DNA of 64,000 nt from Candidatus Omnitrophota bacterium (GTDB lineage: Bacteria; Omnitrophota; Gorgyraeia; 1-14-0-20-64-10), in contig JACQCH010000040.1 in the NCBI GenBank assembly GCA_016201735.1, positions 18,822 to 82,821 on the forward strand, read 5' to 3'. Numbering within the stretch: position 1 is the first letter of the stretch; every line of letters starts with the position of its first letter. Of the stretch, positions 8,963 to 36,868 are shown piece by piece. A model generated the notes under the pieces. That model saw only the letters and a program-made list of their open reading frames with translations, was not told where the DNA came from and ran no database searches. The translations under genes and the position numbers were made by a program.

Positions 8963-9744
8963 CGGACCTTTCCGGGCGCAGGGCCCTGGTCACAGGGGCC
9001 GCGGGGAAGATCGGCTCCATGGTTTCTCAGACCCTCTCGGAGATGGGAGCAAAGGTGGTTCTCCTGGATCTGGAACCGGAGGCCTGCCGCAAAAGCGCTG
9101 AATTGGTTTCCCAACAGGGAAATGGCAAAGGGATCGCTCTCACCTGCAATCTCGAGGAGGAGAAGGCCACCCGTCGGACCATCCGGGAAGCGGTTCAGGC
9201 GCTGGGAGGGTTGGAGATCCTGGTTCACTGTGCCGCCTATGTGGGAACGACTCCAACTCCCGGTTGGGCGGTCCCGTTCGAGCAGCAGAGCGTGGCGGCC
9301 TGGGAGGCCGCCTTGCGGGTGAATCTCACCTCGGCGTTTGTCATGGTGCAGGAGGCCAAAGAGGCGCTTGTTTCTTCAGGGCATGGCAGCGTGATCTTTT
9401 TCTCCTCCATCTATGGGCTGATGGGGCCTGATTTCCGGCTTTACGAAGGGACCTCGATGAACAACCCGGCGGCCTACGGGGCCTCCAAAGGGGGACTGCT
9501 CCAGTTGACCCGATATCTGGCCACCCTGTTGGCGCCGAAGGTGCGCGTCAACGCGATCACACCGGGCGGGGTCTGGCGGGATCAGCCGGACTCTTTCCAC
9601 CAGCAGTACGTTTCCAGGACTCCCCTGGGGCGGATGGCCACGGAAGAGGACTTGAAAGGAGCCGTGCTGTATCTCGCCAGTGATCTGTCGGCTTACGTGA
9701 CGGGACAGAATCTGGTGGTGGATGGAGGATGGACGGCATGGTGA
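8941..9744 (+). CDS. Short-chain dehydrogenase/reductase (SDR)
   Basis: ATG 8941 after a GGAGG. 'ALVTGAAGKIGS' Rossmann motif and 'YGASKGGL' Y-x3-K active site. Confidence 0.65.
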   Translation: MRSIGQLTDLSGRRALVTGAAGKIGSMVSQTLSEMGAKVVLLDLEPEACRKSAELVSQQGNGKGIALTCNLEEEKATRRTIREAVQALGGLEILVHCAAYVGTTPTPGWAVPFEQQSVAAWEAALRVNLTSAFVMVQEAKEALVSSGHGSVIFFSSIYGLMGPDFRLYEGTSMNNPAAYGASKGGLLQLTRYLATLLAPKVRVNAITPGGVWRDQPDSFHQQYVSRTPLGRMATEEDLKGAVLYLASDLSAYVTGQNLVVDGGWTAW

Positions 9745-10763: not shown

Positions 10764-11974
10764 GGACGATTGGAGTGGTCACGGTGGGGCGGTCCGACTA
10801 CGGAATCCTGGTTCCGATCTTAAGAAGGATCCAGCATGATCCGGAACTTGAACTTTATCTGTTTGTCGGGGGAACTCATCTGTCTTCGGAATTCGGCCGG
10901 ACCGTTCGGGCCATTGAAGCGGACGGTTTTCCAATTGAGTCCCGGATCAGGATGGATCTCTCTTCGGATGCACCGGAAGGGATCACCCGATCAATGGGCT
11001 CGGGGATGCGCGGATTTGGTCGGGCCTTTGTTTCTTCCCGCCCGGACCTGTTGCTGGTCACCGGAGATCGCTTCGAGATGTTCTCTGCGGCGGCCGCCTC
11101 GGTGCCGCTGAATCTTCCCCTGGCGCATCTTCATGGCGGAGAGATCTCCGAAGGGGCGATGGACGACCGTTTCCGCCATGCGATCACGAAACTGAGCCAC
11201 TTGCATTTCGCCGCCACGGGGGAAGCCAAGAATCGGATCCTTCGGATGGGGGAGGAACCATGGCGGGTGACCGTCTCAGGGGCTCCCAGCTTGGACAATC
11301 TCCACTCCATGCCTCTTCTGGATCCTCGAGACCTGGAGGCCCGGTTCGGGCTCCGACTCAAAGAGCCCCCCCTTCTGGTGACCTACCATCCGGTCACCTT
11401 AGAGTGGGAGCAGACCGATGTGCAGATCCAGGATCTGCTTCAGGCTCTGGGCCGCGCGGATCTGCCGGTGGTCTTCACTCAGACCAACGCGGACACCTCC
11501 GGTCGAACGATTCAAAGAAGGATTCGGGAATTTGTGAAAAGCAACCCGAGCCGGGCGCAGATCGCCAATAACCTGGGAACTCAAGGATACTTCAGCCTCA
11601 TGGCCGCGGCCGCCGCAATGGTCGGAAATTCTTCGAGCGGTTTTGTGGAGGCGCCGTCGTTCGGGCTTCCTGTGGTCAACGTGGGAAAGCGCCAGCAGGG
11701 AAGGCTCCGGGCCGCGAATGTGATCGATGTCGAGTGCGGGGAGGAGGCGATCGCGGATGGAATCCGCAGAGCGATCGCCCCGGAATTCCGGGCCTCGTTG
11801 AAAGGGTTGAAAAATCCCTACGGGGAAGGGAAGGCCTCGGAGATCATTGTCCGGGGATTAAAAGAAGTTGAGTTGGGTCAACGGTTGATCATCAAAAGGT
11901 TTATCCCATGGTCCGATGCCTCCTCTTGGGCGGGGGCGGTCACGCCCGCGTCCTCATCGACTGCATCCGTTTAA
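10760..11974 (+). CDS. legG: Hydrolysing nucleotide-sugar 2-epimerase (NeuC/LegG family)
   Basis: 'MRTIGVVTVGRSDYGIL...HLHGGE...' matches the UDP-GlcNAc 2-epimerase fold family. ATGA overlap with the upstream gene. Confidence 0.75.
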   Translation: MRTIGVVTVGRSDYGILVPILRRIQHDPELELYLFVGGTHLSSEFGRTVRAIEADGFPIESRIRMDLSSDAPEGITRSMGSGMRGFGRAFVSSRPDLLLVTGDRFEMFSAAAASVPLNLPLAHLHGGEISEGAMDDRFRHAITKLSHLHFAATGEAKNRILRMGEEPWRVTVSGAPSLDNLHSMPLLDPRDLEARFGLRLKEPPLLVTYHPVTLEWEQTDVQIQDLLQALGRADLPVVFTQTNADTSGRTIQRRIREFVKSNPSRAQIANNLGTQGYFSLMAAAAAMVGNSSSGFVEAPSFGLPVVNVGKRQQGRLRAANVIDVECGEEAIADGIRRAIAPEFRASLKGLKNPYGEGKASEIIVRGLKEVELGQRLIIKRFIPWSDASSWAGAVTPASSSTASV

Positions 11975-12570
11975 GCCAAGCGGCGGATCCGGTGGGCATC
12001 CTGGACTCCGACCCGGTTCTTTGGGGCTCGGAACGGATGGAGGTGCCCATTCGCGGTTCGGATGAGCTCCTTTCCAAGATGAAACAGGAGGGGGTTACCC
12101 ATTTCGTCGTTGGATTGGGCGGCGTCGGGGATAATCAACCCCGACGCCGTCTGTTCGACCTGGGGGTTGCGCATGGGTTGGTCCCCTTGACGGTGTGTCA
12201 CCCGCGGGCGATCCTTTCGATGTGGGCCTCCATCGGTGCGGGTTGCGCAATCCTGCCTGGAGCGGTGGTTAATGCGGGCGCTCATCTGGGCGTTAACGTG
12301 ATCGTTAACTCCGGAGCGATTGTGGAGCATGACTGCCGGATTGAGGATCACGTTCACGTGGCCAGCGGGGCGAGGCTCGCCTCCACCGTCCATGTGAAAG
12401 CCGGCGCCCACATTGGAGCGGGGGCGACCGTCCGACAGGGCTTATCCATCGGGGAAAGAGCCGTCGTTGGGGCGGGAGCCGTGGTCGTTAAGAATGTGGA
12501 GCCCGGGACGGTCGTGACCGGGGTCCCGGCCAGGGAATGGAGCCGAGCGGAACGAGGAGGGGATTCCTAA
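11908..12570 (+). CDS. Hexapeptide-repeat sugar N-acetyltransferase (NeuD/PglD/LegH family)
   Basis: 'MVRCLLLGGGGHARVLIDCI' N-terminal Rossmann-like domain plus a C-terminal left-handed beta-helix with repeats 'IGAGA..V..G..IG'. Confidence 0.7.
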   Translation: MVRCLLLGGGGHARVLIDCIRLSQAADPVGILDSDPVLWGSERMEVPIRGSDELLSKMKQEGVTHFVVGLGGVGDNQPRRRLFDLGVAHGLVPLTVCHPRAILSMWASIGAGCAILPGAVVNAGAHLGVNVIVNSGAIVEHDCRIEDHVHVASGARLASTVHVKAGAHIGAGATVRQGLSIGERAVVGAGAVVVKNVEPGTVVTGVPAREWSRAERGGDS

Positions 12571-12572
12571 CC

Positions 12573-13658
12573 ATGTATACGGATCTAAGTCAATTCTGCA
12601 TCGATAAAGAAAAAATCCTTCAGGAAGCCATTACCTTGGTGGACCGAAGTCGGTTAGGAATCGTGTTGGTCGTGGATGAAGAGCGACATCTGATAGGTAC
12701 CATCACCGATGGAGATGTGCGGCGGGCTATGCTGGCCAAGTTTGATATGTCCCAGCCCCTGACTGCTCTTCTGGAAAGAAAAGCCCGCACGGTTCACGCC
12801 CACCCCATCGCAGCTCCGGCAGGAGCCGATCGATCAGTCTATCTGAATCTGCTGAGAACCCATGGGATTCTCCACCTTCCGATTCTGGATGAAATGGGGC
12901 AAGTGACCGGACTGGTGACCATGCAGGAATTCCTGCCGGAACAGGTACTTCCGCTCCACGCGGTGGTCATGGCCGGCGGATTGGGGACTCGCCTGCATCC
13001 GTTGACGGAAGACACGCCAAAGCCGATGCTGCGGGTCGGAGATCGTCCCCTGCTGGAGATCATCATCCGCCAGTTGCGTGAAGCGGGGATTCGAGAGGTC
13101 AAAATCACTACCCATCATAAGCCGGAAAAGATCGAGGCCCATTTCGGAGATGGAAAGAATTTCGGCGTAAAGCTCTCGTATGTGGAGGAGAACCAGCCGT
13201 TGGGAACCATTGGGAGTTTGGGGCTTTTAGAAGTTCCCCAAGAAACGACGCTCGTCATCAACGGGGATATCCTGACGCGGTTGGACATTCGAGCGATGTT
13301 GGCGTTTCACAAGGAGCACAAGGCAGATCTGACTGTGGCGGTCCGCCATTACGATGTCAAGGTCCCTTACGGCGTTATCGAATGTGAGGGACCCGTTGTT
13401 CGGAAGGTAAGCGAAAAGCCAGTGATCGGATTTTTTGTGAACGCCGGAATCTATCTTTTGGATCCGGCCGTCTATCAATACATCCCATGCGGACAGCGGT
13501 TTGACATGACCGATTTGATCCAACGCATTCTCAAGGAGGGCCGACCGGTCATCAGCTTCCCGATACGTGAGTACTGGCTGGATATCGGCCAGCACGCCGA
13601 TTACGAGGAGGCGCAGGGACAGGTCAAGGATTGGGAACTATTGCAAGATGGCCGATAA
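12573..13658 (+). CDS. ptmE: CBS-domain nucleotidyltransferase (PtmE-like; GlcN/GlcNAc-1-P guanylyltransferase candidate)
   Basis: ATG 12573 after a GGAGG. N-terminal CBS pair ('IVLVVDEERHLIGTITDGDVRRAM'), then 'AVVMAGGLGTRLHPLTEDTPKPML', the NTP-transferase motif. Confidence 0.65.
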   Translation: MYTDLSQFCIDKEKILQEAITLVDRSRLGIVLVVDEERHLIGTITDGDVRRAMLAKFDMSQPLTALLERKARTVHAHPIAAPAGADRSVYLNLLRTHGILHLPILDEMGQVTGLVTMQEFLPEQVLPLHAVVMAGGLGTRLHPLTEDTPKPMLRVGDRPLLEIIIRQLREAGIREVKITTHHKPEKIEAHFGDGKNFGVKLSYVEENQPLGTIGSLGLLEVPQETTLVINGDILTRLDIRAMLAFHKEHKADLTVAVRHYDVKVPYGVIECEGPVVRKVSEKPVIGFFVNAGIYLLDPAVYQYIPCGQRFDMTDLIQRILKEGRPVISFPIREYWLDIGQHADYEEAQGQVKDWELLQDGR

Positions 13659-14652
13659 ATCGAAGGAAGGTTTTTGGAAAGACAAGCGGGTTCTCGTGAC
13701 CGGAGCCGGAGGATTCATCGGGAGTCACCTCGCCGAAAGGCTGGTTGAGCTTGGAGCGAAGACCCGGGCGTTCGTCCATTACCGGGCCGACGGTTCCTGG
13801 GGATGGCTTAACAACTCTCCTTGGAAGGATCGAATGGAAGTCCTTGCCGGCGACATTTGCGATAGGGACAGCGTGTTCCAGGCGGTGGAAGGAATGGAGA
13901 TCGTTTTTCATTTGGCGGCCCTTATCGCCATTCCTTATTCGTATCATGCGCCCTATTCCTATTATCGAACCAACGTGGAGGGGACGCTCCACCTCCTGCA
14001 GGCCGCCAGGGCATGCCGCCCCCATCGCATCATTCATACCTCGACCAGCGAGGTGTATGGGACCGCCCAATACTGTCCCATCAATGAGGGGCATCCGTTA
14101 CAAACACAGTCCCCTTATGCGGCCAGTAAATGCGGAGCGGACAAACTCGTGGAAGCCTTTTTCCATTCCTATGAACTTCCGGTGGTTACCGTCCGTCCCT
14201 TCAATACCTTTGGGCCGCGTCAATCGAGTCGGGCCATTGTACCGGCCATCATTACTCAATGCCTGACCCGTGAGACCATTCGGCTGGGGAACCTGCATCC
14301 CACCCGAGACCTTAATTTCGTCGAGGACATTGTGGAAGGATTCCTTTGCGCCGCCATCGCCGAAAAAGCGGTGGGTTGGACGGTGAACCTGGGTACCGGC
14401 AGGGAAATATCGATTCAGACATTGGCTGAAAAGATCGCCGAACTGACCTCCCATTCCATAGCTCTCGAACAAGATTCGAAACGGGTTCGGCCCCAACACA
14501 GCGAGGTGGAGCGGTTGGTGGCGGACAATTCGTTGGCTCGGCAGCTTTTGGGATGGGCTCCTAAGATTAGGTTGGAAGAGGGGCTTAAAGTTACCATTGA
14601 CTGGACAAGGGAGCATTTGGATGGCTATCGGCCAGGCGTCTACGTTCTCTGA
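13648..14652 (+). CDS. NAD-dependent nucleotide-sugar 4,6-dehydratase (LegB-like)
   Basis: 'KRVLVTGAGGFIGSHLAERL' Rossmann motif and 'YAASK' catalytic dyad. Extended SDR, 334 aa. Confidence 0.65.
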   Translation: MADKSKEGFWKDKRVLVTGAGGFIGSHLAERLVELGAKTRAFVHYRADGSWGWLNNSPWKDRMEVLAGDICDRDSVFQAVEGMEIVFHLAALIAIPYSYHAPYSYYRTNVEGTLHLLQAARACRPHRIIHTSTSEVYGTAQYCPINEGHPLQTQSPYAASKCGADKLVEAFFHSYELPVVTVRPFNTFGPRQSSRAIVPAIITQCLTRETIRLGNLHPTRDLNFVEDIVEGFLCAAIAEKAVGWTVNLGTGREISIQTLAEKIAELTSHSIALEQDSKRVRPQHSEVERLVADNSLARQLLGWAPKIRLEEGLKVTIDWTREHLDGYRPGVYVL

Positions 14653-15808
14653 AATCCCACTGTCGGTTCCGCTCTTTCAGGGGAATGAGTGGAAGTACCT
14701 GAAGGAATGCCTGGACGCCGGTTGGGTTTCTTCAGCAGGCAGTTTTGTAGACCGGTTTGAGCGGGAAATAACCTCCGCTGTGGAGGCTCCGTATGCGGTG
14801 GCGACGGTCAATGGAACGGCTGCCTTGCACATTGCCCTGAAAACGACAGGCCTGGAACCTGAGGAAGAAGTATTGGTTTCCGATCTGACCTTTATCGCCC
14901 CGGTGAATGCGATACGGTACTGCGGCGCGCATCCGGTGCTGGTGGATTCCGATCCATCCTCCTGGCAAATGGATACAGAGCGGTTGGAGCAATTTCTGCA
15001 GGAAGGGTGCGTCTTTAAAGAGGGCAAGCTGTTCAATAGGAAAACGCTCCGCCGGGTCCGAACCATCCTGCCGGTACATATCTTGGGACTCACTTGTGAA
15101 ATCGACCGAATCGCGGCATTGGCGAGTCAATTTCGATTAAGCGTCGTTGAAGATGCTGCGGAAGCCCTCGGCGTGCGGTATCAAGACAGACACGTCGGCA
15201 CTTTTGGAGATGTCGGCGTGCTGAGTTTCAATGGAAACAAGGTAGTTACGGCTGGAGGAGGCGGCATGCTGGTGACCCGTCATAAGGAACTGGCCCGTTG
15301 CGCCCGATATTTAACCACTCAGGCCAAGGATGACGATTTTGAATCCATCCATCACGAGATAGGATACAACTATCGATTAACCAACCTCCAGGCCGCCTTG
15401 GGTGTGGCGCAGTTAGAACAATTGCCGGCCTTCCTTGTCAAGAAACGTTGGATCGCCCAATCGTATGCGGACCGTCTAAAGGATCTGGAAGGATTGACCT
15501 TGATGCCGGTCCCGAGCCATACAGAGCCGACCTTCTGGTTGTATACGGTGCTTCTACCCGAAGGGACAGCGTTGTCCCAGCGCAATCGTATCTTAATGGG
15601 AATGCGGGAGCAGGGGATTGGCGCAAGACCCCTTTGGCATCCGATTCATGGGCAACCCCCTTATCAGAAATGCGAGGTCCTGGGGGGAGAGATCGCTACG
15701 GACCTTTACCATCGAGGCATCAGTCTTCCTTCCTCAGTCGGACTCTCTGAAGAAGAGCTGACCCGGTGCGTCGAGGTGTTTCGGCAGGAGTTTCGGGTCT
15801 CCGGATGA
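14621..15808 (+). CDS. DegT/DnrJ/EryC1/StrS PLP-dependent sugar aminotransferase (LegC/PseC-like)
   Basis: 'IPLSVPLFQGNEWKYLKECLDAGWVSS' is the family N-terminus. The PLP-lysine region 'SFNGNKVVTAGGGG' is present. Confidence 0.75.
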   Translation: MAIGQASTFSEIPLSVPLFQGNEWKYLKECLDAGWVSSAGSFVDRFEREITSAVEAPYAVATVNGTAALHIALKTTGLEPEEEVLVSDLTFIAPVNAIRYCGAHPVLVDSDPSSWQMDTERLEQFLQEGCVFKEGKLFNRKTLRRVRTILPVHILGLTCEIDRIAALASQFRLSVVEDAAEALGVRYQDRHVGTFGDVGVLSFNGNKVVTAGGGGMLVTRHKELARCARYLTTQAKDDDFESIHHEIGYNYRLTNLQAALGVAQLEQLPAFLVKKRWIAQSYADRLKDLEGLTLMPVPSHTEPTFWLYTVLLPEGTALSQRNRILMGMREQGIGARPLWHPIHGQPPYQKCEVLGGEIATDLYHRGISLPSSVGLSEEELTRCVEVFRQEFRVSG

Positions 15809-17820
15809 CGATTTTTGTAGAATATCTAACACTCCTAAAGGAACTCACCTTCGTTTTCCCCCGGCTCGGACGGGGAAGCAAATGCTTTTTTATCGATGCG
15901 ACCCGACCGGCCCTCATCCTTGCCAAGGTTTTCGAGCGGATCGTCGGGACGGAAATTCGCGCGCTCTCATTCCGTCTGATTGACATCCGGGATGAAAAAG
16001 GTCAGTTTTTGCGATGGCGGCTCCACTACAAGGACCTCATCGAGGTCCGGGCGGAGATCCTGAAAGATCCGGAATTCCGGCGTCTGCTGGAAGGATCTTT
16101 AAATGAGGACCGGCTGCCCACCTTCCTGGCCAAGGCCCTGAGTCTCTTCACTTTTTCCAATCGGCAGACCCTCTGGCGGGCCTTGTTAGTCATTCAGATT
16201 TTTGTCTGGAAGGCGCGACGCGAACAGATAGAGAAACCGGTGCTTCTTTTGGAGCGCCGGCCATGGTTTTACATCCTTCAACGATATGCCTCTCGATTTG
16301 GTCTTCAACTGGTTCCAGGGCCTCCCTCTTGGCGGTCGGATCTGCGGTCGATGTTGAAAAGCGTGCTCGGGCCGGGAGGATCCGCGTTGAAGCGGTTTCT
16401 TGTGTATAAGAAGAACCGTGTGGACTCGTTGGGAGCGGCCGACTCTTCCGGCTTTAAGATCGCCGTAGAATATTATGGCCATCTCAATCTCAAGCGGCCC
16501 GAATATTATTCGGACATGTTTTTCTTGCGCGGCCCTGAGCTGTCCGCTCGGAATCTGCTGGTTCTGTTTGGAATACCGCAAGATCCTTTAACCCCTCAGA
16601 AATGGGAGGAGATTTCCAGTCTTGGAATCTCCGCATTGGCGACTCATCCCAAAGCAACGGAAGTATCGAATGCGCCGCTCTTCGAGCCCCAGATTCGATG
16701 GAAGGCCGGTCGGCGGGAAAAAGAATTGCTTGCCGGCCTTTCCCCATCGATCGAAGGCCGGTGGTTAAAAAGCCATCTCCACCAATATTTCGCATCGCGT
16801 GCTTTTTGGGAAGATCTATTTGCTCAACATCGAGTGAAGCTTTTCATCACCTGGTATAAATACGATGGGGCTCATTGCCCGATTGCCGATGCCTTAGAAG
16901 GTTTAGGAGGAGTGACCGCCATCTATCAGCGGGCCTACGAGGCGCATCCCTCGGCGGAGACCCTCGTGGCGGTGGATCTGCTTTTTGCTTTCTCCCCCCG
17001 GATGGCTGAGATGGAACGGCGCTCTGGGTCGAAGATCCGGTATCACGTGGCGACGGGATATGTTGGGGATTATCGTTTTCCCCTCCTCAAGGAAGGGGCT
17101 CAGAAGATCCGGCAGCAGCTTCAGCGCCATGGGGCCCGCCGGATCTTGGCCTTCACCGATGAAGGTTCCATCGATGATACCCGGTGGCACACCGGTCATG
17201 AATTCCAGAGAGAAAACTACGCCTTCCTGCTGCAAAAAGTCCTTCGGGAGTCATGGTTTGGACTGGCGATCAAACCCAAAGACCCTTCCTCCTTGCGTCG
17301 AAGGTTGGGGAAGGTGAGTAAGCTCCTTGAAGAAGCGGAAAAGACCGGTCGGTGTTTCGTCTATCAAGAAGGAGGCCTTAACAGCTCCATCCCTCCCGCG
17401 GCGGCTGCCTTAGCCTCCGATGCGCTGATTCATGGACACCTGAGTGCGGGAACAGCCGCTGTCGAGTCGGCGTTGGTCGGTGTGCCCACCCTATTGCTCG
17501 ACCGAGAGGGGTGGCCTCTTTCGCCGCTGTACCGATTGGGGTTGGGGAAAGTGGTTTTCAACGATTGGGATACCTTCTGGGCCATTCTTTATGAGCACTG
17601 GCATCGGCCCGAAGGAGTCCCTGGATTTGGAGATTGGACTCTTATTCTGGAAGAGATGGATCCATTCCGAGACGGACGAGCCGCTGAACGGATCGGGACG
17701 TATCTTGCTTGGCTCTTGGACGGATTTAAGGGAGGGTTGTCCCGGGAAACAGTCTTGGCGGATGCCGCTCAAAGATATGCTGAGCGATGGGGGGCGGATA
17801 AGGTGACCAGCGTCTTATGA
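15805..17820 (+). CDS. Hypothetical ~670-aa protein, paralog A (putative GT-B-like C-terminal domain); candidate nonulosonic-acid transferase
   Basis: ATG 15805 (ATGA overlap) gives 'MTIFVEYLT...', which aligns with the start of paralog B. C-terminus 'ASDALIHGHLSAGTAAVESALVGVPTLL' resembles the GT-B C-terminal donor-binding region. No named family recognised. Confidence 0.55.
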   Translation: MTIFVEYLTLLKELTFVFPRLGRGSKCFFIDATRPALILAKVFERIVGTEIRALSFRLIDIRDEKGQFLRWRLHYKDLIEVRAEILKDPEFRRLLEGSLNEDRLPTFLAKALSLFTFSNRQTLWRALLVIQIFVWKARREQIEKPVLLLERRPWFYILQRYASRFGLQLVPGPPSWRSDLRSMLKSVLGPGGSALKRFLVYKKNRVDSLGAADSSGFKIAVEYYGHLNLKRPEYYSDMFFLRGPELSARNLLVLFGIPQDPLTPQKWEEISSLGISALATHPKATEVSNAPLFEPQIRWKAGRREKELLAGLSPSIEGRWLKSHLHQYFASRAFWEDLFAQHRVKLFITWYKYDGAHCPIADALEGLGGVTAIYQRAYEAHPSAETLVAVDLLFAFSPRMAEMERRSGSKIRYHVATGYVGDYRFPLLKEGAQKIRQQLQRHGARRILAFTDEGSIDDTRWHTGHEFQRENYAFLLQKVLRESWFGLAIKPKDPSSLRRRLGKVSKLLEEAEKTGRCFVYQEGGLNSSIPPAAAALASDALIHGHLSAGTAAVESALVGVPTLLLDREGWPLSPLYRLGLGKVVFNDWDTFWAILYEHWHRPEGVPGFGDWTLILEEMDPFRDGRAAERIGTYLAWLLDGFKGGLSRETVLADAAQRYAERWGADKVTSVL

Positions 17821-18722
17821 GTATCCGCATCATTCCCCGTTTAGATATCAAGGGACCCAATGTGGTCAAGGGCGTTCATTTAGAGGGCTTGCGCGTCATG
17901 GGGGTTCCCGAGCTGTTTGCTGCCCAATACTATCAGGATGGAGCGGATGAGTTAATCTACATCGATGTGGTAGCCAGTCTTTACGGCCGCAACAGCCTTG
18001 ACGAGGTTGTTCGGCGTGCGGCGCAGAACATCTTTATCCCCCTAACCGTCGGCGGTGGTATCCGAACGATCGATGACATCCGTCGTTTACTAAGAGCCGG
18101 CGCGGACAAGGTAGCGATCAATACCGCCGCAATCAAGAATCCAAAACTGATCCAAGAAGCCGCCCGCGCCTTCGGTTCTCAGTGCATTGTGCTTTATATC
18201 GAAGCCAAGAAACGGGGGCCGGGCAGATATGAATGTTTAACGGATAACGGTCGGGAATCGACCGGCTGCGACGTGTTTGAGTGGGTGAGGCAAGCAGTTC
18301 ATTTGGGTGCGGGAGAGATTCTCCTCACCTCCATCGATCAGGAAGGGACCGGAAAGGGTTATGACTTAGAGTTGACCGCGGAGGTGGCCCAGCGTGTTGA
18401 TGTACCGGTGATTGCCTCCGGAGGGGCCGGAGCACCCGAACACATTCGAGACGCCGTTCTCTTGGGCAAGGCAGACGCCGTTTGCGCAGCGTCCGTATTT
18501 CACTACCAATTAATTCAGACAGGGGAAGCCTCGCTTAACCCCATCCGGTTTGAAGAAGGGAACGTTGAGTTTTTAAAGGGGCGGCTTCCCATCGCCGCGT
18601 TTACCCGGCAGCGAATCGCGCCCTTGAGGATTCCGGAAATTAAAGAGTACCTGGAGAAAGCCGGGATCCCCATTCGCCGACTCAATCTGGAGTCCATGAG
18701 CAACTCAAGGAAAATGGAATAA
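17817..18722 (+). CDS. wbuZ: Imidazole-glycerol-phosphate synthase cyclase subunit homolog (HisF-like, WbuZ-type)
   Basis: 'IIPRLDIKGPNVVKGVHLEGLRVMGVPELFAAQYYQDGADELIYIDV' is a HisF TIM-barrel signature. Its position in a glycan locus next to a HisH-like gene fits a sugar-modification role. Confidence 0.75.
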   Translation: MSIRIIPRLDIKGPNVVKGVHLEGLRVMGVPELFAAQYYQDGADELIYIDVVASLYGRNSLDEVVRRAAQNIFIPLTVGGGIRTIDDIRRLLRAGADKVAINTAAIKNPKLIQEAARAFGSQCIVLYIEAKKRGPGRYECLTDNGRESTGCDVFEWVRQAVHLGAGEILLTSIDQEGTGKGYDLELTAEVAQRVDVPVIASGGAGAPEHIRDAVLLGKADAVCAASVFHYQLIQTGEASLNPIRFEEGNVEFLKGRLPIAAFTRQRIAPLRIPEIKEYLEKAGIPIRRLNLESMSNSRKME

Positions 18723-18725
18723 ATA

Positions 18726-19445
18726 ATGGATAGATCCCCGCACCCATCCCGAGTGCTTATTGTCGATTACGGCTCGGGCAATCTCTTCAGCATCGAAAGG
18801 GCCCTGCACTCTTTAGGGGCGGAGGTTGAGATCAGCGCTGATCCCGACGCGCTCCGGCGCGCTCCGGGAGTGATTTTGCCTGGTGTGGGCGCCTTCGGAG
18901 ACGGAATGAAAAATTTAAGGGAAAAGGGATTGCTGACCCCCTTGGCGGAATACGCCCAATCCGGTCTGCCCCTGCTGGGTATCTGTCTGGGGATGCAGCT
19001 CCTATTCACGGAGAGCCAAGAATTTGGCCGTCATGAGGGACTCGGACTTATCCCCGGGAAGGTCGTGAACCTTCGGCCGACGGACCCTCAAGGGAGAAGA
19101 GTCAAAATCCCGCATGTGGGGTGGAGCCAATTAATGTGTCCACCTTCTCGTCCGCATTGGAACGATACAATCCTCATGGGTTTGCCGGTGGGGGAAGCCA
19201 TGTATTTTGTCCATTCTTTTATTCCCGTTCCTGAGGATTCTGCCGTTGTCGCCCAGATGATCTATGGCGGACATCTTTACTGTGCTGTTGTGGAAAGACG
19301 AAACATGATAGGATGCCAGTTTCATCCAGAAAAGAGCGGTCCTGTGGGCTTGCGTTTCTTGCGGAATTTCTTAACTCGAATCAAACCACCCAAAGAAGAG
19401 TTCACCGCGGTAAATCCTGCCGCAGTAATAAGGAGACGTGAATGA
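18726..19445 (+). CDS. wbuY: Class I glutamine amidotransferase (HisH-like, WbuY-type)
   Basis: 'VLIVDYGSGNLFSIERAL', 'LPGVGAFGD' and 'GICLGMQLL' (catalytic Cys) form a HisH signature. Confidence 0.75.
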   Translation: MDRSPHPSRVLIVDYGSGNLFSIERALHSLGAEVEISADPDALRRAPGVILPGVGAFGDGMKNLREKGLLTPLAEYAQSGLPLLGICLGMQLLFTESQEFGRHEGLGLIPGKVVNLRPTDPQGRRVKIPHVGWSQLMCPPSRPHWNDTILMGLPVGEAMYFVHSFIPVPEDSAVVAQMIYGGHLYCAVVERRNMIGCQFHPEKSGPVGLRFLRNFLTRIKPPKEEFTAVNPAAVIRRRE

Positions 19446-20653
19446 GCCTTGTGATGGGGATAAACCCTGTGGTTGGAGGAATGGAGAAACAACTGCTCAC
19501 TCAGCCCCAGGAGGTGAAGTTCTGCAGGCGATGCGTGGTTTCCAATCAAAGGCCGCGAATCCGGTTCGATGAGGAAGGAGTTTGCAGTGCGTGCCGGTTC
19601 GCTTACGAGAAGTATCACGTCGTCGATTGGGGGAGCCGCGAGGCGCAGTTGGAACAACTCTTGGAAAAACACCGAAGGAAAGACGGCACTTGGGATGTGA
19701 TCGTTCCCTGCAGCGGTGGGAAGGATTCTTCCTATGTGGCCCATCAGCTTAAGGCCAAATACGGAATGCATCCCTTGACAGTCACCTGGGCTCCTTTCCG
19801 CTCCACGGAGATCGGCTATAAAAACTTTCTTTCCTTCGTCGATTCCGGTTTCAATAATTTAACGGCCTATCCCAACGGCCGTTTCCATCGCAAGTTAGCC
19901 CGGCTTTCACTCGAGGAGTTGGGCGATGCCTGGCAGCCGTTTACCTACGGCCAAATGTGCTACGCCTTTCATATCGCAAAGCGTTTCAACATCAACCTCA
20001 TATTCTTTGGCGAAAACGGAGAAGCGGAATATGGGGGGGATCCGAAAAACAATTACCGACCCTATATGCCGTTCGAAGATTGGGCCCTGCTTTATTTCAA
20101 GGGCACAACGATTGATGAACTTGTTCAATTCGGACTCAAGCACAAGAATTACTTGACGGCTCAGGACTTCGACCCATCGGATCTCACCTTTTATCGACCC
20201 CCGGCGATCGAGCAGCTTGACCTGACGGGGATTCAGATGCACTGGTATTCCTACTATCACAAATGGGTTCCCCAAGAAAATTATTATTACAGCATTGATC
20301 ATACGGGCTTCTGCGCCAATCCCGAGCGGTCAGAAGGGACCTATTCGAAATATGCCAGCCTCGATGACCGGATGGACGGATTCCACTTTTACATGGGATA
20401 CATCAAATTTGGTATCGGCCGGACTACCTCTGATGTCGCCCATGAGATTCGGGACGGTCATCTGACACGGGAAGAAGGGGTGCGGCTGGTTCGGCGCTAC
20501 GATGGGGAATTCCCTTCAAAATACTTTGCAGAATTTCTTGCCTACCTGGATATCGATGAAAACCATTTTTGGAAAGTGGCCGAGCATTACCGGCAGCCTC
20601 ACCTATGGGAGAAAATCAACGGGGAATGGAAGCTGACGCACCAGGTGAGCTAG
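19442..20653 (+). CDS. wbuX: N-acetyl sugar amidotransferase (PP-loop ATP-pyrophosphatase, WbuX/PseA/PtmG family), copy 1
   Basis: N-terminal Zn ribbon 'CRRC...CSAC' and PP-loop 'VPCSGGKDSSY'. 403 aa. Visibly lower GC than its neighbours. Confidence 0.7.
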   Translation: MSLVMGINPVVGGMEKQLLTQPQEVKFCRRCVVSNQRPRIRFDEEGVCSACRFAYEKYHVVDWGSREAQLEQLLEKHRRKDGTWDVIVPCSGGKDSSYVAHQLKAKYGMHPLTVTWAPFRSTEIGYKNFLSFVDSGFNNLTAYPNGRFHRKLARLSLEELGDAWQPFTYGQMCYAFHIAKRFNINLIFFGENGEAEYGGDPKNNYRPYMPFEDWALLYFKGTTIDELVQFGLKHKNYLTAQDFDPSDLTFYRPPAIEQLDLTGIQMHWYSYYHKWVPQENYYYSIDHTGFCANPERSEGTYSKYASLDDRMDGFHFYMGYIKFGIGRTTSDVAHEIRDGHLTREEGVRLVRRYDGEFPSKYFAEFLAYLDIDENHFWKVAEHYRQPHLWEKINGEWKLTHQVS

Positions 20654-20728
20654 AGGATTCCCGCTGGAGTTTACCCTCGGCTCCAACCGAGGGTGGGAAT
20701 GACACGCAGCGGTAGAGGAGGGCCATGA

Positions 20729-21958
20729 ATGGCTGAGCAAGCGGTGAAGGAATCGGAGCGGCTGGAGTCCAGGTACGGTCTGCCGGAGAAGGTGATTTTC
20801 TGCAAATGGTGCCTGATATCCAACCAGCGCCCCTGTTCCTCGGTGGAGTTCAAGCATGGGAAGGACCGGCAGCACCGCAGCCTCCACATTGATGAAGAAG
20901 GAATCTGCGACGCCTGCCGTTTTGCGGAGCAGAAGGAACAGGTCGACTGGGCTGACCGGGAGAAGGAGCTCGTCAAACTTCTGGACAAGCACCGCCGGAA
21001 AGACGGCGGCTACGACTGCGTCGTCCCCGGAAGCGGCGGCAAGGACAGCTGTTATACTTCCCACGTCTTGAAATACAAATACGGGATGCATCCCTTGACC
21101 GTCACCTGGCCTCCCATCCTTTATACCGACATCGGGTGGAAAAATTTCCTGGGCTGGATCGAGGTGGGGGGCTTTGACAACATCACCTACAGGCCGAACG
21201 GGCGGGTTCACCGCCTGCTCACCCGGCTTTCCATCGAGAATCTTCTGCATCCCTTCCAGACCTTTATCCTGGGGCAGAAGAACCTGGCTCCCAAGATGGC
21301 GCTTCAGATCCAGGTGCCGCTGATCTTCTATGGAGAGAACGAAGCCGAATATGGGAACCCGATCGCGGACAATTCCACCTCCCTGCGGGACAAATCGTAC
21401 TACACGATGAACCATCTCTCGGAGATCTCCCTGGCCGGCCTGCCGGTTCCGGAGCTGATGGAGCGGCACGGCCTGTCCCTGAATGATCTGAAAGCCTATC
21501 TGCCGGCGGACAGCCGGGAGCTGGAGCGATTCCCCATGGAGGTCCATTACCTGGGTTATTACCTGAAATGGACTCCGCAGGAGAGCTATTACTACGCCGT
21601 CGAGCACACGGGCTTCGAGGCCAACCCGGTTCGGACGGAAGGGACCTACAGCAAGTACAACAGCTTGGATGACAAGATTGATGGACTGCACTATTTTACT
21701 ACTTTTATTAAATTTGGCCTTGGGCGGGCCACGTACGATGCTTCCCAGGAGATCCGGAACAAACACCTCACCCGGGAAGAGGGAGTGGCCTTGGTCCGGC
21801 GATTTGACGGGGAGTTTCCCCAACGGTATTTCCAAGAGGTGATGGAGGCGATCGGAATGAAAGAGGAGCGATTCCTTGAGCTGTGCGATCAGTTCCGATC
21901 GCCTCACCTCTGGAAAAAGGAGGAGGGCCGGTGGCAATTGCGGCATCAGGTTTCGTGA
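20729..21958 (+). CDS. wbuX: N-acetyl sugar amidotransferase (WbuX/PseA family), copy 2
   Basis: 'CKWC...CDAC' Zn ribbon and 'VPGSGGKDSCY' PP-loop. It is a paralog of copy 1, about 55-60% aa identity by eye. Confidence 0.7.
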   Translation: MAEQAVKESERLESRYGLPEKVIFCKWCLISNQRPCSSVEFKHGKDRQHRSLHIDEEGICDACRFAEQKEQVDWADREKELVKLLDKHRRKDGGYDCVVPGSGGKDSCYTSHVLKYKYGMHPLTVTWPPILYTDIGWKNFLGWIEVGGFDNITYRPNGRVHRLLTRLSIENLLHPFQTFILGQKNLAPKMALQIQVPLIFYGENEAEYGNPIADNSTSLRDKSYYTMNHLSEISLAGLPVPELMERHGLSLNDLKAYLPADSRELERFPMEVHYLGYYLKWTPQESYYYAVEHTGFEANPVRTEGTYSKYNSLDDKIDGLHYFTTFIKFGLGRATYDASQEIRNKHLTREEGVALVRRFDGEFPQRYFQEVMEAIGMKEERFLELCDQFRSPHLWKKEEGRWQLRHQVS

Positions 21959-22007
21959 GAGGGTATCCTGCACCTTCCGATCCTTAGCCGATGCTCCAGG
22001 AATCCCT

Positions 22008-24083
22008 ATGACGATCTTTGTTGAGAATCTAACTTTTAAAAGCTGGCTGACGGCCGTGCTCCCTCGGTTGAGGCGGGGCGGGCGTTGCCTCTTTATTTAT
22101 TCCACCCCAACCGCTCGGGTTCTCACCCGATTTTCCGATCGGTTCTTGGGAACGGAGACTCGGTTGTTTGAGTTCCGGTTGATCGATGTCCGTGATGAAA
22201 AGGGGCAGCTCCTGCGTTGGAGAATCACTTATCAGGATTTGGCGGAGGTTCAACAGGAGATATTGAACGATCCCCGATTCCGGTTCTTGCTGGAGGGCCC
22301 ATTGAATCAGGGCCGGCTTCCTACCTTCTTCGCGAAGGATCTGGGCACGATCAGTCTCTCCGATCGAAAAACGCTCTGGCGGGTCCTGCTCACCATCCAG
22401 ATTTGCGTCTGGAAGAGCCGGCGCGATCGGATCGAAGGGCCGATCCTTGTGATGGAGCGCCGCCCTTGGTTTGATATCCATCAGCGGTATGCCTCCCGGT
22501 TTGGGCTTCGGCTGATTCCGGCTTCTCCCTATCAGCGGGGGAATCTCCGACAGACCCTGAAAAGATGGCTGGGACCGGGTGGGGTGGTATTAAAACGGTT
22601 TGTTCGGCGGTCATCCTCGCTCTCGATGACGCTCGAGGGCGGGAATGACAACAAATCAGGTCCAAAGCTGGCCGTGGAATATTACGGCCATCTGAACTTG
22701 AGACAGCCGGAATGCTACTCGGATTTATTCTTCTGGCACCGGTCTGCCTTGTCCGGACAGGATTTGTTGGTTCTGTTTGGAGTTCTCGACGACCCTTTAA
22801 ATTCCAAGAAGTGGGAGGAGATCACGAGCTTAGGGATTTCCGCTCTTGTGACTCATCCGAAGGCAACGAGAATCTCCGAGGCCCCGATTTTTATCCCAAG
22901 GGTTCGATGGACGCCGCATCGACTTGAAAGAGATCTTCTGGCCTCTCTTCCTCGGTCTAGGGAAGGTCAGTGGATGAAAAGAGAGATCCGCCATTACCTC
23001 TGCCAGCGTGCCTTTTGGGAAGATCTGTTCGCCCAACAGAAGGTGAAGCTCTTTATTGCCTGGTACAAATACGATGGGGCCCATTGCGCAATCGCCGACG
23101 CCTTGGAGAGTTTAGGGGGAGTCACCGCCATCTATCAGCGGGCCTATGAGGTGCACCCATCGGCGGAGACTACCGTGGCGGTGGATCTGGTTTTTGGTTT
23201 CTCCCCCCAGGGGGTCGAGCTGGAACGGCGCTGTAGCTCGAAGATTCGGTATTACGTGACCACCGGATATGTCGGGGATTATCGTTTCCCACTCCTCAAG
23301 GAAGGATCTCAGAAGATCCGGCAGCAGCTTCAGGGCCATGGGGCCCGGCGCATCCTGGCCTTCACTGATGAAAGTTCCGCCGGCGATTCCCGGTGGCACA
23401 GCGGTCATGAATTCCAGAGAGAAAATTATGCCTTTCTGCTCACCAAGGTTCTCCAGGAACCTTGGTTTGGCCTGACGATCAAGCCAAAGGCCCCGGTCTC
23501 TTTGCGCCGGCGGTTGGGGCCGACGGCCCGACTCCTTGAGGAAGCGGAAGCCACCGGTCGCTGTTTTGTTTATGAGGGGGAGAGCCTCCACGGCTCGGCC
23601 CCCGTGGCGGCCGCGGCGTTGGCCGCCGATGCGCTGATTCATGGGCACTTATGTGCCGGAACTGCCGGGATGGAATCGGCCTTAGCCGGCGTGCCGACCT
23701 TGATGCTGGATCGGGAAGGATGGCCGCCGTCACCGCTGTACCGGTTGGGGGAAGGCCAAGTGGTTTTTAAGGACTGGGATCTTTTTTGGAAGGTTCTCGT
23801 TGAACATTGGACCCGGCCCGGTGGGGTTCCCGGATTTGGAGACTGGTCGCCGATCTTGGAGGAGCTGGATCCGTTTCGAGATGGGCGGGCGGCCGAGCGG
23901 ATCGGAATGTATCTTTCCTGGCTTTTGGAGGGGTTCAAGGCCGGGTTGTCCCGGGAGACAGTCATGGCCGACGCGGCCAACCGGTATGCCCAGCGGTGGG
24001 GGAGGGATAAGGTGACTCAAGTTGACGGGAAAGCTCTTCTTTCTCCTGTCCCCGCCGAGATTCCTGTGAGGAGCGGGGTTTAA
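22008..24083 (+). CDS. Hypothetical ~690-aa protein, paralog B of 15805..17820
   Basis: 'MTIFVENLTF...'. The C-terminal ~320 aa are nearly identical to paralog A ('WYKYDGAHC.IADALE.LGGVTAIYQRAYE.HPSAET...'). Confidence 0.55.
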   Translation: MTIFVENLTFKSWLTAVLPRLRRGGRCLFIYSTPTARVLTRFSDRFLGTETRLFEFRLIDVRDEKGQLLRWRITYQDLAEVQQEILNDPRFRFLLEGPLNQGRLPTFFAKDLGTISLSDRKTLWRVLLTIQICVWKSRRDRIEGPILVMERRPWFDIHQRYASRFGLRLIPASPYQRGNLRQTLKRWLGPGGVVLKRFVRRSSSLSMTLEGGNDNKSGPKLAVEYYGHLNLRQPECYSDLFFWHRSALSGQDLLVLFGVLDDPLNSKKWEEITSLGISALVTHPKATRISEAPIFIPRVRWTPHRLERDLLASLPRSREGQWMKREIRHYLCQRAFWEDLFAQQKVKLFIAWYKYDGAHCAIADALESLGGVTAIYQRAYEVHPSAETTVAVDLVFGFSPQGVELERRCSSKIRYYVTTGYVGDYRFPLLKEGSQKIRQQLQGHGARRILAFTDESSAGDSRWHSGHEFQRENYAFLLTKVLQEPWFGLTIKPKAPVSLRRRLGPTARLLEEAEATGRCFVYEGESLHGSAPVAAAALAADALIHGHLCAGTAGMESALAGVPTLMLDREGWPPSPLYRLGEGQVVFKDWDLFWKVLVEHWTRPGGVPGFGDWSPILEELDPFRDGRAAERIGMYLSWLLEGFKAGLSRETVMADAANRYAQRWGRDKVTQVDGKALLSPVPAEIPVRSGV

Positions 24084-24085
24084 GG

Positions 24086-26021
<1,936 letters not shown>

Positions 26022-27814: not shown

Positions 27815-28646
27815 ACCGTTTCTGGTTGTTTTTGTCTACCATGATGTCTCGGAGAAGCCCAGCCCCTTCAACCGGCGGTTCGGATTGAACGTGCCGCCGC
27901 GGCTGTTCTCTCGGCAGATGGATATGATCCGGGAACTGTTCCATCTGGTCGACCCGGCCCAACTACGCCGTGGAAGGTTCCCCACGCCGGCGGCATTGAT
28001 CACGTTCGATGATGGGAACTCGAGTTACTTTAAAACGGCCCTTCCCATCCTGAAAGAAAGGGAGATTCCCTCCCTGTCGTTTCTGAACCTGGGTCCGATC
28101 CGCGGGGAGATCTGCTGGTCGGGATTGGCCTCTTACCTTCAAACCGAAGAGCCGGCGTTTCGATCCTCTGATGGGGACCCATCACCGGATGCCTTCTGCC
28201 GGTTCACCCAGGAGGAAGTGGCCCGCTACCTGGACTCGGTGGACCAGGCCAAACTCTTTGAACGGGTCCGGGCTTTTCGAGGTCTCATGGCGACAGAGGC
28301 GGAACTGGCGGCGGCGGCCGATGAACCGTTGGTCGGTCTGGGAAATCATCTGTACAATCATTACAACGCCACCCTGCTGGGAGATCGGCTCCGAAAGGAA
28401 TATCGGGTGAATCAAGAGGTTTTGGACGCCCATCCCCGCGGGTTTCGGTTTTTCAGCTTTCCCTTCAGCCGGATGGATCGCCGGGCGATCCGGATGATCC
28501 GTGAGGAGGGAGCCGACGCGATCTTCTCGGGAAGGGGTTTTGCCAATCTCCCCGGTCAGGAGCGGGTTTATTCCCGAATGGAGATGAAGGAGTCCATAAT
28601 GGAACCGAAAGAGTTGATGGCTCATGTCCTTAGAAATCTCATCTGA
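27795..28646 (+). CDS. Polysaccharide deacetylase (NodB homology / CE4) family protein
   Basis: ATG 27795 after an AAAGGGAG. 'FVYHDVSE...', 'ITFDDGNSS' and 'HLYNH' are NodB-domain-like motifs. The long 5' extension of ORF 27426 is rejected. Confidence 0.5.
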   Translation: MFRWMVKPFLVVFVYHDVSEKPSPFNRRFGLNVPPRLFSRQMDMIRELFHLVDPAQLRRGRFPTPAALITFDDGNSSYFKTALPILKEREIPSLSFLNLGPIRGEICWSGLASYLQTEEPAFRSSDGDPSPDAFCRFTQEEVARYLDSVDQAKLFERVRAFRGLMATEAELAAAADEPLVGLGNHLYNHYNATLLGDRLRKEYRVNQEVLDAHPRGFRFFSFPFSRMDRRAIRMIREEGADAIFSGRGFANLPGQERVYSRMEMKESIMEPKELMAHVLRNLI

Positions 28647-31248: not shown

Positions 31249-31257
31249 GGAGTTCGC

Positions 31258-32217: not shown

Positions 32218-32221
32218 CGTT

Positions 32222-34507: not shown

Positions 34508-34525
34508 GCAGATGAGGGGGTAAGA

Positions 34526-36861: not shown

Positions 36862-36868
36862 TGGAGCC

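What the first reader, a model, noticed from the sequence alone, without database searches (positions are those of the whole stretch)
15805..24083. Two paralogous ~680-aa unknown proteins bracketing the acetamidino module: candidate nonulosonic-acid transferases
- ORFs 15805..17820 and 22008..24083 share the start 'MTIFVE.LT' and are nearly identical over their C-terminal ~320 aa.
- I cannot assign them to a named family.
- The C-terminal region 'ADALIHGH.SAGTA..ESAL.GVPTL' resembles a GT-B donor-binding domain.
- They sit directly beside a complete CMP-legionaminic-acid-type pathway, which makes them candidates for the missing transferase that attaches the nonulosonate. Functionally this would be analogous to Maf proteins or to TagF/KpsS-like capsule transferases.
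- A third protein with a similar C-terminal flavour lies at 28624..30243.
Basis: partly seen in the sequence, partly recalled or inferred. Interest (0 to 1): 0.75.

Follow-up and report, generated by a model that had tools for sequence, protein, structure and literature searches.

The report
Orphan GT-B transferases beside legionaminic-acid genes
Two paralogous ~680-residue proteins in a Candidatus Omnitrophica sugar-biosynthesis island belong to a large unnamed protein family with a glycosyltransferase (GT-B) fold that sits next to legionaminic-acid and CMP-sugar genes in more than ten phyla, which makes them good but unproven candidates for the enzymes that attach this sialic-acid-like sugar to the cell surface.

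Summary
ORFs 15805-17820 (A, 671 aa) and 22008-24083 (B, 691 aa) are full-length paralogs. They are 68% identical overall: 59% in the N-terminal half and 78% in the C-terminal half, so the C-terminal half is not "nearly identical". They flank a WbuZ/WbuY/WbuX/WbuX acetamidino module and lie just downstream of a complete Leg operon.

No Pfam, NCBIfam or PDB sequence match exists for A, B or 64 relatives. The family is nevertheless large, with 2,120 50%-identity cluster representatives, and every genomic locus recovered comes from an uncultured MAG.

Synteny is strong. Forty of 42 loci with full flanks carry Leg-pathway or CMP-ulosonate-synthetase genes within 10 kb, and the gene usually follows legC directly.

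The best reading is a new GT-B family of CMP-nonulosonate transferases, most likely using a Leg derivative (confidence about 0.6). Donor, acceptor and activity are untested. The "third protein" (28624-30243) also has a GT-B fold but is not detectably related by sequence.

The parts
15805..17820 (+). Protein A (671 aa), an orphan GT-B family member. Its ATG overlaps the legC stop codon (ATGA).
22008..24083 (+). Protein B (691 aa), a paralog of A with 68% identity. It starts 50 nt after the second WbuX gene.
15805..16434 (+). A residues 1-210: an extra N-terminal alpha/beta domain with a helical insertion and unknown role. It has few conserved residues (D63, G66). Boundaries were inferred from the secondary-structure order of the model.
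16447..17127 (+). A residues ~215-441: inferred N-terminal Rossmann half of the GT-B core (acceptor side). Conserved residues are S236, W335, D391, G418, Y419 and D422.
17131..17619 (+). A residues ~443-605: inferred C-terminal Rossmann half (nucleotide-donor side). Conserved elements are F-x-D452-E453, K490-P491-K492, G515-R516, D539, the E554 helix and D566.
17659..17691 (+). Signature motif DPFRDGRAAER (A residues 619-629), almost invariant across the family. In the best hhalign alignments it falls in register with NPYGEGKASE of NeuC/LegG and with FCSxExGxAS of TagF.
7221..15808 (+). Complete legionaminic-acid operon, in this order: GFO oxidoreductase (PtmF-like), LegF cytidylyltransferase (8201-8962), SDR (PtmA-like), NeuB/LegI, NeuC/LegG, PglD-like LegH, CBS-NTP transferase (PtmE-like), LegB, LegC.
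17817..21958 (+). Acetamidino module bracketed by A and B: WbuZ/HisF-like, HisH-like glutaminase, and two WbuX amidotransferases that are 48% identical to each other.
28624..30243 (+). Protein C (539 aa): a second, unrelated Pfam-less family with a GT-B fold. Invariant residues include H399-P400 and Y441-R442, with G443-S444-S445 nearly invariant. It is linked to the downstream GFO/methyltransferase/SIS/TAL/HpcH module.
36869..37648 (+). Second CTP_transf_3 cytidylyltransferase (CTP2 type). It could supply an alternative CMP-activated donor.

Best explanation
A and B are cytoplasmic GT-B-fold glycosyltransferases of a previously unnamed family. They most likely take a CMP-activated nonulosonic acid as donor and transfer it to a growing lipid-linked glycan, releasing CMP. 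The likely donor is the legionaminic-acid derivative made by the operon directly upstream, possibly carrying an acetamidino group from the WbuXYZ module between the two genes.

Inferred mechanism:
- The C-terminal Rossmann half (about residues 443-605) binds the CMP part of the donor. It is 75% identical between A and B over residues 446-600.
- Within that half, the conserved E554 helix would hold the ribose. K490/K492/R516 would take the phosphate-contacting role that the His of the 'HP' or 'RMHY' motif plays in sialyltransferases and TagF.
- Conserved acidic residues (D422, D452/E453, D391) are candidates for the catalytic base.
- The N-terminal 340 residues are more divergent (59% identity between A and B). 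They comprise the extra N-terminal domain (1-210) and the first part of the inferred acceptor-side half (about 215-441), and would select the acceptor.
- The two paralogs would therefore add the sugar to two different acceptors or in two different linkages.

What is shown: paralogy, the existence, size and phylum breadth of the family, the GT-B fold, the conserved synteny and the conserved residues. What is inferred: the domain boundaries, the roles of the residues, the CMP donor, Leg as the sugar, and the division of labour between the paralogs.
For: - Pathway context. The Leg pathway upstream is complete without A, so A is not needed to make CMP-Leg.
- Coupling. The ATG of A overlaps the legC stop codon.
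- Synteny. Of 42 full-flank loci, 33 have at least one Leg gene, 26 have at least two, and 40 have a Leg gene or a CTP_transf_3 gene within 10 kb. In about 22 of the 32 loci that have legC, the family gene lies within about 260 nt downstream on the same strand. All 7 Pfam-annotated contigs carry CTP_transf_3.
- No competing donor pathway. None of those 7 contigs lists a TagD or IspD-type CDP-alditol gene.
- Conservation pattern. Invariant residues cluster in the inferred donor-side half, and that half is more conserved between A and B.
- Location. No transmembrane segment was found. The island also encodes a polyprenyl-phosphate initiating transferase, a Wzy_C-GT4 fusion and GT9 enzymes.
- Precedent. 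TagB-like GT-B proteins are required for adding the Pse or Leg derivative in Tannerella forsythia (PMC5420450).
Against: - No biochemical data exist for any family member.
- Sequence-level links to any known family fail. hhalign gives 1.45% against a TagF C-domain alignment and 3% against NeuC/LegG.
- Many loci also carry a second, different cytidylyltransferase just downstream, so the donor could be another CMP-activated acid.
- Nine of 42 loci have no recognisable Leg gene within 10 kb.
- B. subtilis SpsB, a TagB-like protein next to Leg genes, is dispensable for Leg transfer (PMC7439481).
Confidence: 0.6

Rival explanations
1. A and B are glycosyltransferases of the same island but use an ordinary NDP-sugar donor (UDP or GDP). 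For example, they might add the residue that later accepts Leg. Their position next to legC would then reflect only operon packing within a large glycan island.
For: Generic GT-B hits (OtsA, HepE, MGD1, PglA-type, WbnH) score close to the TagF-like ones. The island holds many other sugar pathways, including FnlA/RmlD-like genes, GT2s and GT4s. The HP motif is not conserved.
Against: The linkage is specifically to Leg and cytidylyltransferase genes across more than ten phyla whose remaining cluster content differs. The top structural matches are CMP-releasing enzymes.
Confidence: 0.15
2. A and B are not transferases. They would be GT-B-fold nucleotide-sugar processing enzymes of the 2-epimerase or hydrolase type, like NeuC/LegG or PseG, acting on a GDP- or UDP-linked intermediate of a modified Leg pathway.
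Against: A bona fide LegG/NeuC (TIGR03568, E = 2.8e-129) is present in the window and in roughly half of the full-flank loci (18 of 36), together with the family gene. No Epimerase_2 Pfam match was found in any member. The hhalign probability is only 3%. The pathway is complete without the family gene. Two extra copies of such an enzyme would be hard to explain.
Confidence: 0.12
3. A and B are TagF-like phosphotransferases. They would transfer an alditol-phosphate or similar group from a CDP-activated donor, building a teichoic-acid-like phosphodiester polymer or decorating the Leg-containing glycan.
For: The closest solved structures are TarL, TagF and Bcs3. An IspD-like NTP_transf_3 cytidylyltransferase lies at 5493-6206 in the window.
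Against: No Glyphos_transf (PF04464) match was found in any member. hhalign against a true TagF C-domain alignment gives 1.45%. The catalytic His of the RMHY motif is replaced. None of the 7 Pfam-annotated loci has a TagD or IspD-type gene.
Confidence: 0.08

Closest known systems
TagF / TarL / TagB-type CDP-alditol phosphotransferases (Pfam Glyphos_transf PF04464) and TagF-like capsule polymerases such as Bcs3
   Different: There is no significant sequence similarity (no Pfam hit; hhalign 1.45%). The conserved RMHY histidine is replaced by K-P-K. There is an extra ~210-residue N-terminal alpha/beta domain. The genomic partners are Leg and CMP-ulosonate genes rather than CDP-glycerol or CDP-ribitol genes.
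Tannerella forsythia Tanf_01245 / TFUB4_00887 (Pse and Leg-derivative transferases, TagB-like GT-B; PMC5420450)
   Same: These are orphan GT-B proteins encoded just downstream of a CMP-NulO locus. They occur as a pair of closely related proteins whose C-terminal region is the conserved part, and they are genetically required for adding the terminal NulO. This is the best functional analogue.
   Different: They are about 445 aa, recognisable by CDD as TagB or GT-B, and carry D/E-D/E-G and HP motifs. A and B are about 680 aa, unrecognised by domain databases, and lack a conserved HP.
Bacterial sialyl- and Kdo-transferases with a GT-B fold (GT38 SiaD, GT30 WaaA; also GT52/GT80, and the modified GT-B families GT99/GT107/GT118/GT140)
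UDP-GlcNAc 2-epimerase / NeuC / LegG family (Pfam Epimerase_2)
   Different: They are not transferases. There is no Pfam match and hhalign gives 3%. A true LegG is encoded a few genes upstream.
Maf (DUF115) flagellin nonulosonate transferases
   Same: The proposed function is the same: transfer of Pse or Leg from a CMP donor.

Membership tests
GT-B fold glycosyltransferase superfamily | Two Rossmann-like alpha/beta domains with an inter-domain cleft, and structural matches to GT-B proteins | tested here: met
   [not shown]
GT-B fold glycosyltransferase superfamily | Conserved acidic residue on the helix after C-domain strand 4, which contacts the nucleotide ribose | tested here: inconclusive
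   E554 is conserved in at least 90% of members and sits on helix 550-557, after strand 540-543. Its role is inferred from position only; no ligand model was made.
Glyphos_transf (PF04464; TagB/TagF/TarL) | Significant match to the family profile | tested here: not met
   No Pfam hit was found for A or B, for 55 members or for 9 distant members. hhalign of the C-terminal half against 25 true PF04464 C-domains gives probability 1.45%.
Glyphos_transf (PF04464; TagB/TagF/TarL) | Closest three-dimensional similarity | tested here: met
   [not shown]
Glyphos_transf (PF04464; TagB/TagF/TarL) | Conserved His of the L-R-M-H-Y segment after C-domain strand 2, and the P-T-W-R segment after strand 1 | tested here: not met
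   Comparing alignment A5 with the family by eye, the corresponding segments read I-K-P-K-x-P and F-T/F-D-E. There is no conserved His. The correspondence is positional, not a statistical alignment.
Bacterial sialyltransferase motif set (GT38/GT52/GT80; Freiberger 2007 as cited in PMC5420450) | D/E-D/E-G motif and HP motif | tested here: not met
   D452-E453 is invariant or nearly so, but the third position is G only in A (consensus N). No conserved HP exists, and H381-P382 and H543 of A are not conserved family-wide.
Epimerase_2 (PF02350; WecB/NeuC/LegG) | Significant match to the family profile | tested here: not met
   No Pfam hit. hhalign against 22 LegG sequences gives probability 3%, although the alignment is in register.
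Maf / DUF115 | DUF115 domain or Maf-like fold | tested here: not met
   [not shown]
Capsule_synth (KpsC/KpsS; GT107) and related retaining Kdo/Pse transferases (GT99, GT118, GT140) | Profile match, or a modified GT-B fold with a helical sub-domain | tested here: not met
   [not shown]
CMP-nonulosonate transferase (functional class) | Transfers a NulO from a CMP-NulO donor to an acceptor | not testable with these tools
   Only indirect support is available: conserved synteny with Leg and CTP_transf_3 genes and a fold closest to CMP-releasing enzymes.

The most novel reading that the evidence does not exclude
A and B are founding members of a new glycosyltransferase family that sequence databases cannot recognise. 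The family has at least 2,000 50%-identity clusters and has been recovered only from uncultured bacteria. It would be the main legionaminic-acid or CMP-ulosonate transferase or polymerase of Omnitrophota, Planctomycetota, Acidobacteriota, Nitrospirota, SAR202 and others. It would use a Lys-based phosphate-binding motif (K-P-K) in place of the sialyltransferase/TagF His motif, and it carries an additional N-terminal domain. The paralog pair would build a glycan with two different Leg linkages, possibly a poly-Leg chain like the Legionella O-antigen.
Probability: 0.4. Interest if true: 0.7.

Novelty: new variant of a known kind. Interest (0 to 1): 0.6.

Why it matters
Transferases for bacterial sialic-acid-like sugars (Leg and Pse) are poorly known compared with the biosynthetic enzymes. 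Only Maf, FlmG, the Tannerella TagB-like pair, KpsS1 (GT118) and a few promiscuous sialyltransferases have been tied to them. New ulosonate-transferase families are still being defined from structures (PMC5420450, PMC12887879).

This is a family of about 2,000 sequence clusters that no domain database names. It folds as a GT-B and is embedded in Leg operons across many uncultured phyla. That makes it a concrete, testable candidate for the missing enzyme in environmental bacteria. It would also be a possible new tool for chemoenzymatic legionaminylation.

If the rival readings are right, the family is still a new GT-B branch with a conserved role in nonulosonate glycan assembly.

Tried and rejected
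- Sequence assignment. Pfam and NCBIfam scans of A, B and C found nothing. Pfam scans of 55 members and 9 distant members found nothing. PDB sequence searches with a single sequence, the full-length profile and the C-half profile returned nothing or noise such as beta-lactamase and PNP.
- Homology between A/B and protein C. hhalign gave 0.3% and 0.7%, so this is rejected at sequence level.
- Internal duplication within A (domain against domain): none found.
- Sequence-level link to TagF. A TagF C-terminal fragment recalled from memory retrieved genuine PF04464 proteins. The resulting profile did not match the family significantly (1.45%), and the single fragment gave nothing.
- Link to LegG/NeuC: 3%.
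- Annotated relatives on plasmids: no match.
- First attempt to fetch related loci with the 55-sequence alignment failed because no stretch was conserved enough. It succeeded with a 12-sequence alignment.
- Membrane anchoring: no transmembrane-like segment in A, B or C.
- A segmental duplication carrying WbuX together with the family gene: unlikely, because the two WbuX copies are only 48% identical while A and B are 68% identical. No other locus has two family copies within 10 kb.
Residue-level superposition on TagF or TarL, and mapping of conserved residues onto the cleft, could therefore not be done.
Full report
OBSERVATION

The two ORFs are real. A is 15805-17820 and B is 22008-24083, both on the + strand. 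They coincide with NCBI gene calls HY211_06115 (671 aa) and HY211_06140 (691 aa) of a Candidatus Omnitrophica MAG contig of 98 kb. Both begin MTIFVE.LT.

A and B align end to end with 459/672 identities (68%, E = 0). Identity is 59% over residues 1-340 and 78% over residues 341-671. The C-terminal half is therefore the more conserved part, but it is not "nearly identical". Third-codon-position identity is 53%, so the duplication is old.

Orthologs from other genomes are about equally distant from A and B, at 40-53% identity. B is slightly closer to them in 44 of 68 comparisons. No other locus carries two copies within 10 kb. The duplication is therefore specific to this lineage.

The ATG of A overlaps the legC stop codon (ATGA). 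B starts 50 nt after the second WbuX gene.

CONTEXT IN THE WINDOW

The window is one long, almost entirely co-directional glycan-biosynthesis island.

- Directly upstream of A is a complete legionaminic-acid operon. It contains a GFO oxidoreductase, the LegF cytidylyltransferase (true start 8201, overlapping the preceding stop), an SDR, NeuB/LegI (TIGR03569), NeuC/LegG (TIGR03568), a PglD-like acetyltransferase (LegH), a CBS-nucleotidyltransferase (PtmE-like), LegB (TIGR04180) and LegC (TIGR04181).
- Between A and B lie a HisF-like WbuZ, a HisH-like glutaminase and two WbuX amidotransferases that are 48% identical to each other. This is an acetamidino module.
- Downstream of B come GT2 enzymes, FnlA- and RmlD-like genes, a deacetylase and protein C. 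A second module follows: GFO, methyltransferases, SIS, transaldolase-like, HpcH aldolase, two SDRs, a second CTP_transf_3 cytidylyltransferase and a 2-hydroxyacid dehydrogenase.
- After that come a PPTase, a hexapeptide acyltransferase and an FkbH-like gene, more GTs, two PMT_2 proteins, a polyprenyl-phosphate initiating transferase, a Wzy_C-GT4 fusion and two GT9 enzymes.

CMP-Leg synthesis needs neither A nor B.

THE FAMILY

A, B and their relatives have no Pfam, NCBIfam or PDB sequence match. This was tested on A and B, on a 55-sequence profile, on each of the 55 members, on nine distant members and on a profile of the C-terminal half.

The family is nevertheless large. A profile search of 1.84 billion cluster representatives found 2,120 proteins at E <= 1e-3 and 1,035 at E <= 1e-30. 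Nearly all of the 150 listed are 650-740 aa and match end to end. Wherever a source gives a name, it is "hypothetical protein".

All 62 genomic loci recovered are from MAGs. They include Omnitrophota, Planctomycetota, Acidobacteriota, Nitrospirota, Chloroflexota/SAR202, Elusimicrobiota, Rhodocyclaceae, Bacteroidia, Deltaproteobacteria, SAR324, candidate Uhrbacteria and Saganbacteria.

Residues conserved over 65 diverse members are D391, G418, D422, D452(-E453), K490-P491-K492, G515-R516, D539, D566 and the signature DPFRDGRAAxR at 619-629. E554 is conserved in most members.

FOLD

AlphaFold2 with the 55-sequence alignment gives a confident model (mean pLDDT 92.7, pTM 0.92).

Foldseek against the PDB returns only GT-B proteins at the top, including OtsA, HepE, WecB-type epimerases, TagF and capsule polymerases. 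E-values are 6e-7 to 2e-4 but TM-scores are low.

From the order of secondary-structure elements I infer four parts. They are an extra N-terminal alpha/beta domain (about 1-210), the N-terminal Rossmann half of the GT-B core (about 215-441), the C-terminal nucleotide-binding half (about 443-605) and C-terminal helices that carry the signature motif. No internal duplication is detectable, and no transmembrane segment was found.

HOW CLOSE IS IT TO KNOWN FAMILIES?

Only the fold links it to known families.

- A genuine TagF C-domain alignment (25 PF04464 fragments) compared with the family's C-terminal half gives an hhalign probability of 1.45%.
- An alignment of 22 LegG/NeuC sequences gives 3%.
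- In both cases the best local alignment is in the topologically expected register. The E554 helix and DPFRDGRAAERI pair with NPYGEGKASEII of LegG and with FCSxExGxAS of TagF. This is suggestive but not statistically significant.
- By position, the family has F-T/F-D-E where TagF has P-T-W-R, and I-K-P-K-x-P where TagF has L-R-M-H-Y. The His used by TagF and by sialyltransferases (HP motif) is therefore not present.
- The family cannot be filed under Glyphos_transf, Epimerase_2, the HP-motif sialyltransferases, Capsule_synth or Maf.

SYNTENY

Seven contigs with precomputed Pfam annotation all have a CTP_transf_3 cytidylyltransferase within 10 kb of the family gene. They come from Margulisiibacteriota, SAR202, Acidobacteria, Elusimicrobia, a 5.4-Mb contig and two others. 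Most also carry NeuB, NeuC, PglD-like, PtmE-like, LegB and LegC genes. None lists a TagD or IspD-type gene.

I then compared the window's own proteins against 66-68 non-redundant loci. Among the 42 loci with at least 8 kb of flank on both sides:
- 33 have at least one Leg gene, 26 have at least two and 23 have at least three.
- 28 have a CTP_transf_3-type ORF, detected with a custom HMM.
- 40 have one or the other. The exceptions are L047 and L058.

In about 22 of the 32 loci with legC, the family gene lies within about 260 nt downstream on the same strand. NeuB-type genes are present at about one to three per genome (general knowledge). A random 20-kb window would therefore contain one about 1% of the time.

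One complication remains. Two cytidylyltransferase types occur. A LegF-like type lies mostly upstream, and a second type, like window 36869-37648, lies mostly downstream, sometimes directly adjacent to the family gene. The donor could therefore be a second CMP-activated acid in some or all genomes.

INTERPRETATION

The best-supported reading is that A and B are cytoplasmic GT-B glycosyltransferases that use a CMP-activated nonulosonate, most likely the Leg derivative of the adjacent operon. Divergence between A and B is concentrated in the N-terminal half, which includes the extra domain and part of the inferred acceptor-side half. This suggests two acceptors or two linkages (inference).

Supporting precedent: the TagB-like GT-B proteins Tanf_01245 and TFUB4_00887 of Tannerella forsythia are encoded next to CMP-Pse and CMP-Leg loci and are required for adding the terminal NulO (PMC5420450).

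Three rivals remain:
- A GT-B transferase using an ordinary NDP-sugar.
- A TagF-like phosphotransferase. The missing His, the absence of CDP-alditol genes in related loci and the lack of a PF04464 match speak against it.

THE THIRD PROTEIN

Protein C (28624-30243) belongs to another Pfam-less family with more than 170 relatives. Some relatives are fused to HAD-IIIA, GT2 or deacetylase domains. Invariant residues include H399-P400 and Y441-R442, with G443-S444-S445 nearly invariant.

NOVELTY AND SCORE

The kind is known: a GT-B enzyme next to a nonulosonate pathway. The family itself is unnamed and unrecognisable by sequence. It has an extra domain and altered motifs, is very widespread in uncultured phyla, and has no characterised member.

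New ulosonate-transferase families (GT99, GT107, GT118, GT140) have recently been founded on exactly this kind of evidence plus biochemistry (PMC12887879). I rate this a new variant of a known kind, with interest 0.6. Function remains inferred until a CMP-Leg transfer assay is done.

Noticed in passing
window 28624-30243: Protein C defines a second Pfam-less GT-B family with more than 170 relatives. H399-P400 and Y441-R442 are invariant, and G443-S444-S445 nearly so. In other genomes it is sometimes fused to HAD-IIIA, GT2 or polysaccharide-deacetylase domains. It co-occurs with the SIS/methyltransferase module rather than with the Leg genes.
   Followed up: yes
window 30244-38580: A conserved module of GFO oxidoreductase, Methyltransf_23, SIS_2, TAL_FSA, FkbM methyltransferase, HpcH/HpaI aldolase, two SDRs, a second CTP_transf_3 and a 2-hydroxyacid dehydrogenase. 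It looks like a route to a second CMP-activated 3-deoxy-ulosonic acid that is independent of NeuB and KdsA. The same module recurs in Margulisiibacteriota (L001), L023, L070 and many Omnitrophota and Planctomycetota loci.
   Followed up: partly
window 38552-41867: A phosphopantetheinyl transferase, a hexapeptide acyltransferase and a 613-aa FkbH-like protein lie together. This suggests a glyceryl-carrier-protein-derived N-acyl (glyceroyl-type) decoration of an amino sugar, like Pse5Am7Gra of Tannerella.
   Followed up: no
window 19442-20653 and 20729-21958: Two adjacent WbuX-type N-acetyl-sugar amidotransferases are only 48% identical and share one WbuZ/HisH pair. With FnlA and RmlD-like genes at 24972-26939, one may amidinate Leg and the other an L-FucNAc-type sugar, as in E. 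coli O145 (from general knowledge).
   Followed up: partly
window 1544-2143, 6118-7209; L003 16013-21843: An APS kinase and a sulfotransferase sit in the same island. The SAR202 locus L003 also has a sulfotransferase plus ATP-sulfurylase and APS kinase next to the family gene. This hints at sulfated Leg-containing glycans.
   Followed up: no
window 58955-61438 and 61426-63506: A fusion of a Wzy_C (O-antigen ligase/polymerase-like) membrane domain with a GT4 glycosyltransferase is followed by two GT9 heptosyltransferase-like genes. The island therefore appears tied to LPS-type assembly.
   Followed up: no
window 8201-8204 and 15805-15808: ATGA start/stop overlaps couple GFO to LegF and LegC to A, which is consistent with a single translationally coupled operon. 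The mechanical ORF 7766-8962 over-extends LegF by about 145 codons into the GFO gene.
   Followed up: yes
L001 6230-10011; L069 1916-7968: In some genomes the family gene sits beside a DHQ-synthase/Fe-ADH-like gene, an aminotransferase and a CTP_transf_3-cupin fusion instead of NeuB. This is reminiscent of 8-amino-Kdo (Kdo8N)-type pathways and suggests the family may serve more than one CMP-ulosonate.
   Followed up: partly
[not shown]
   Followed up: no
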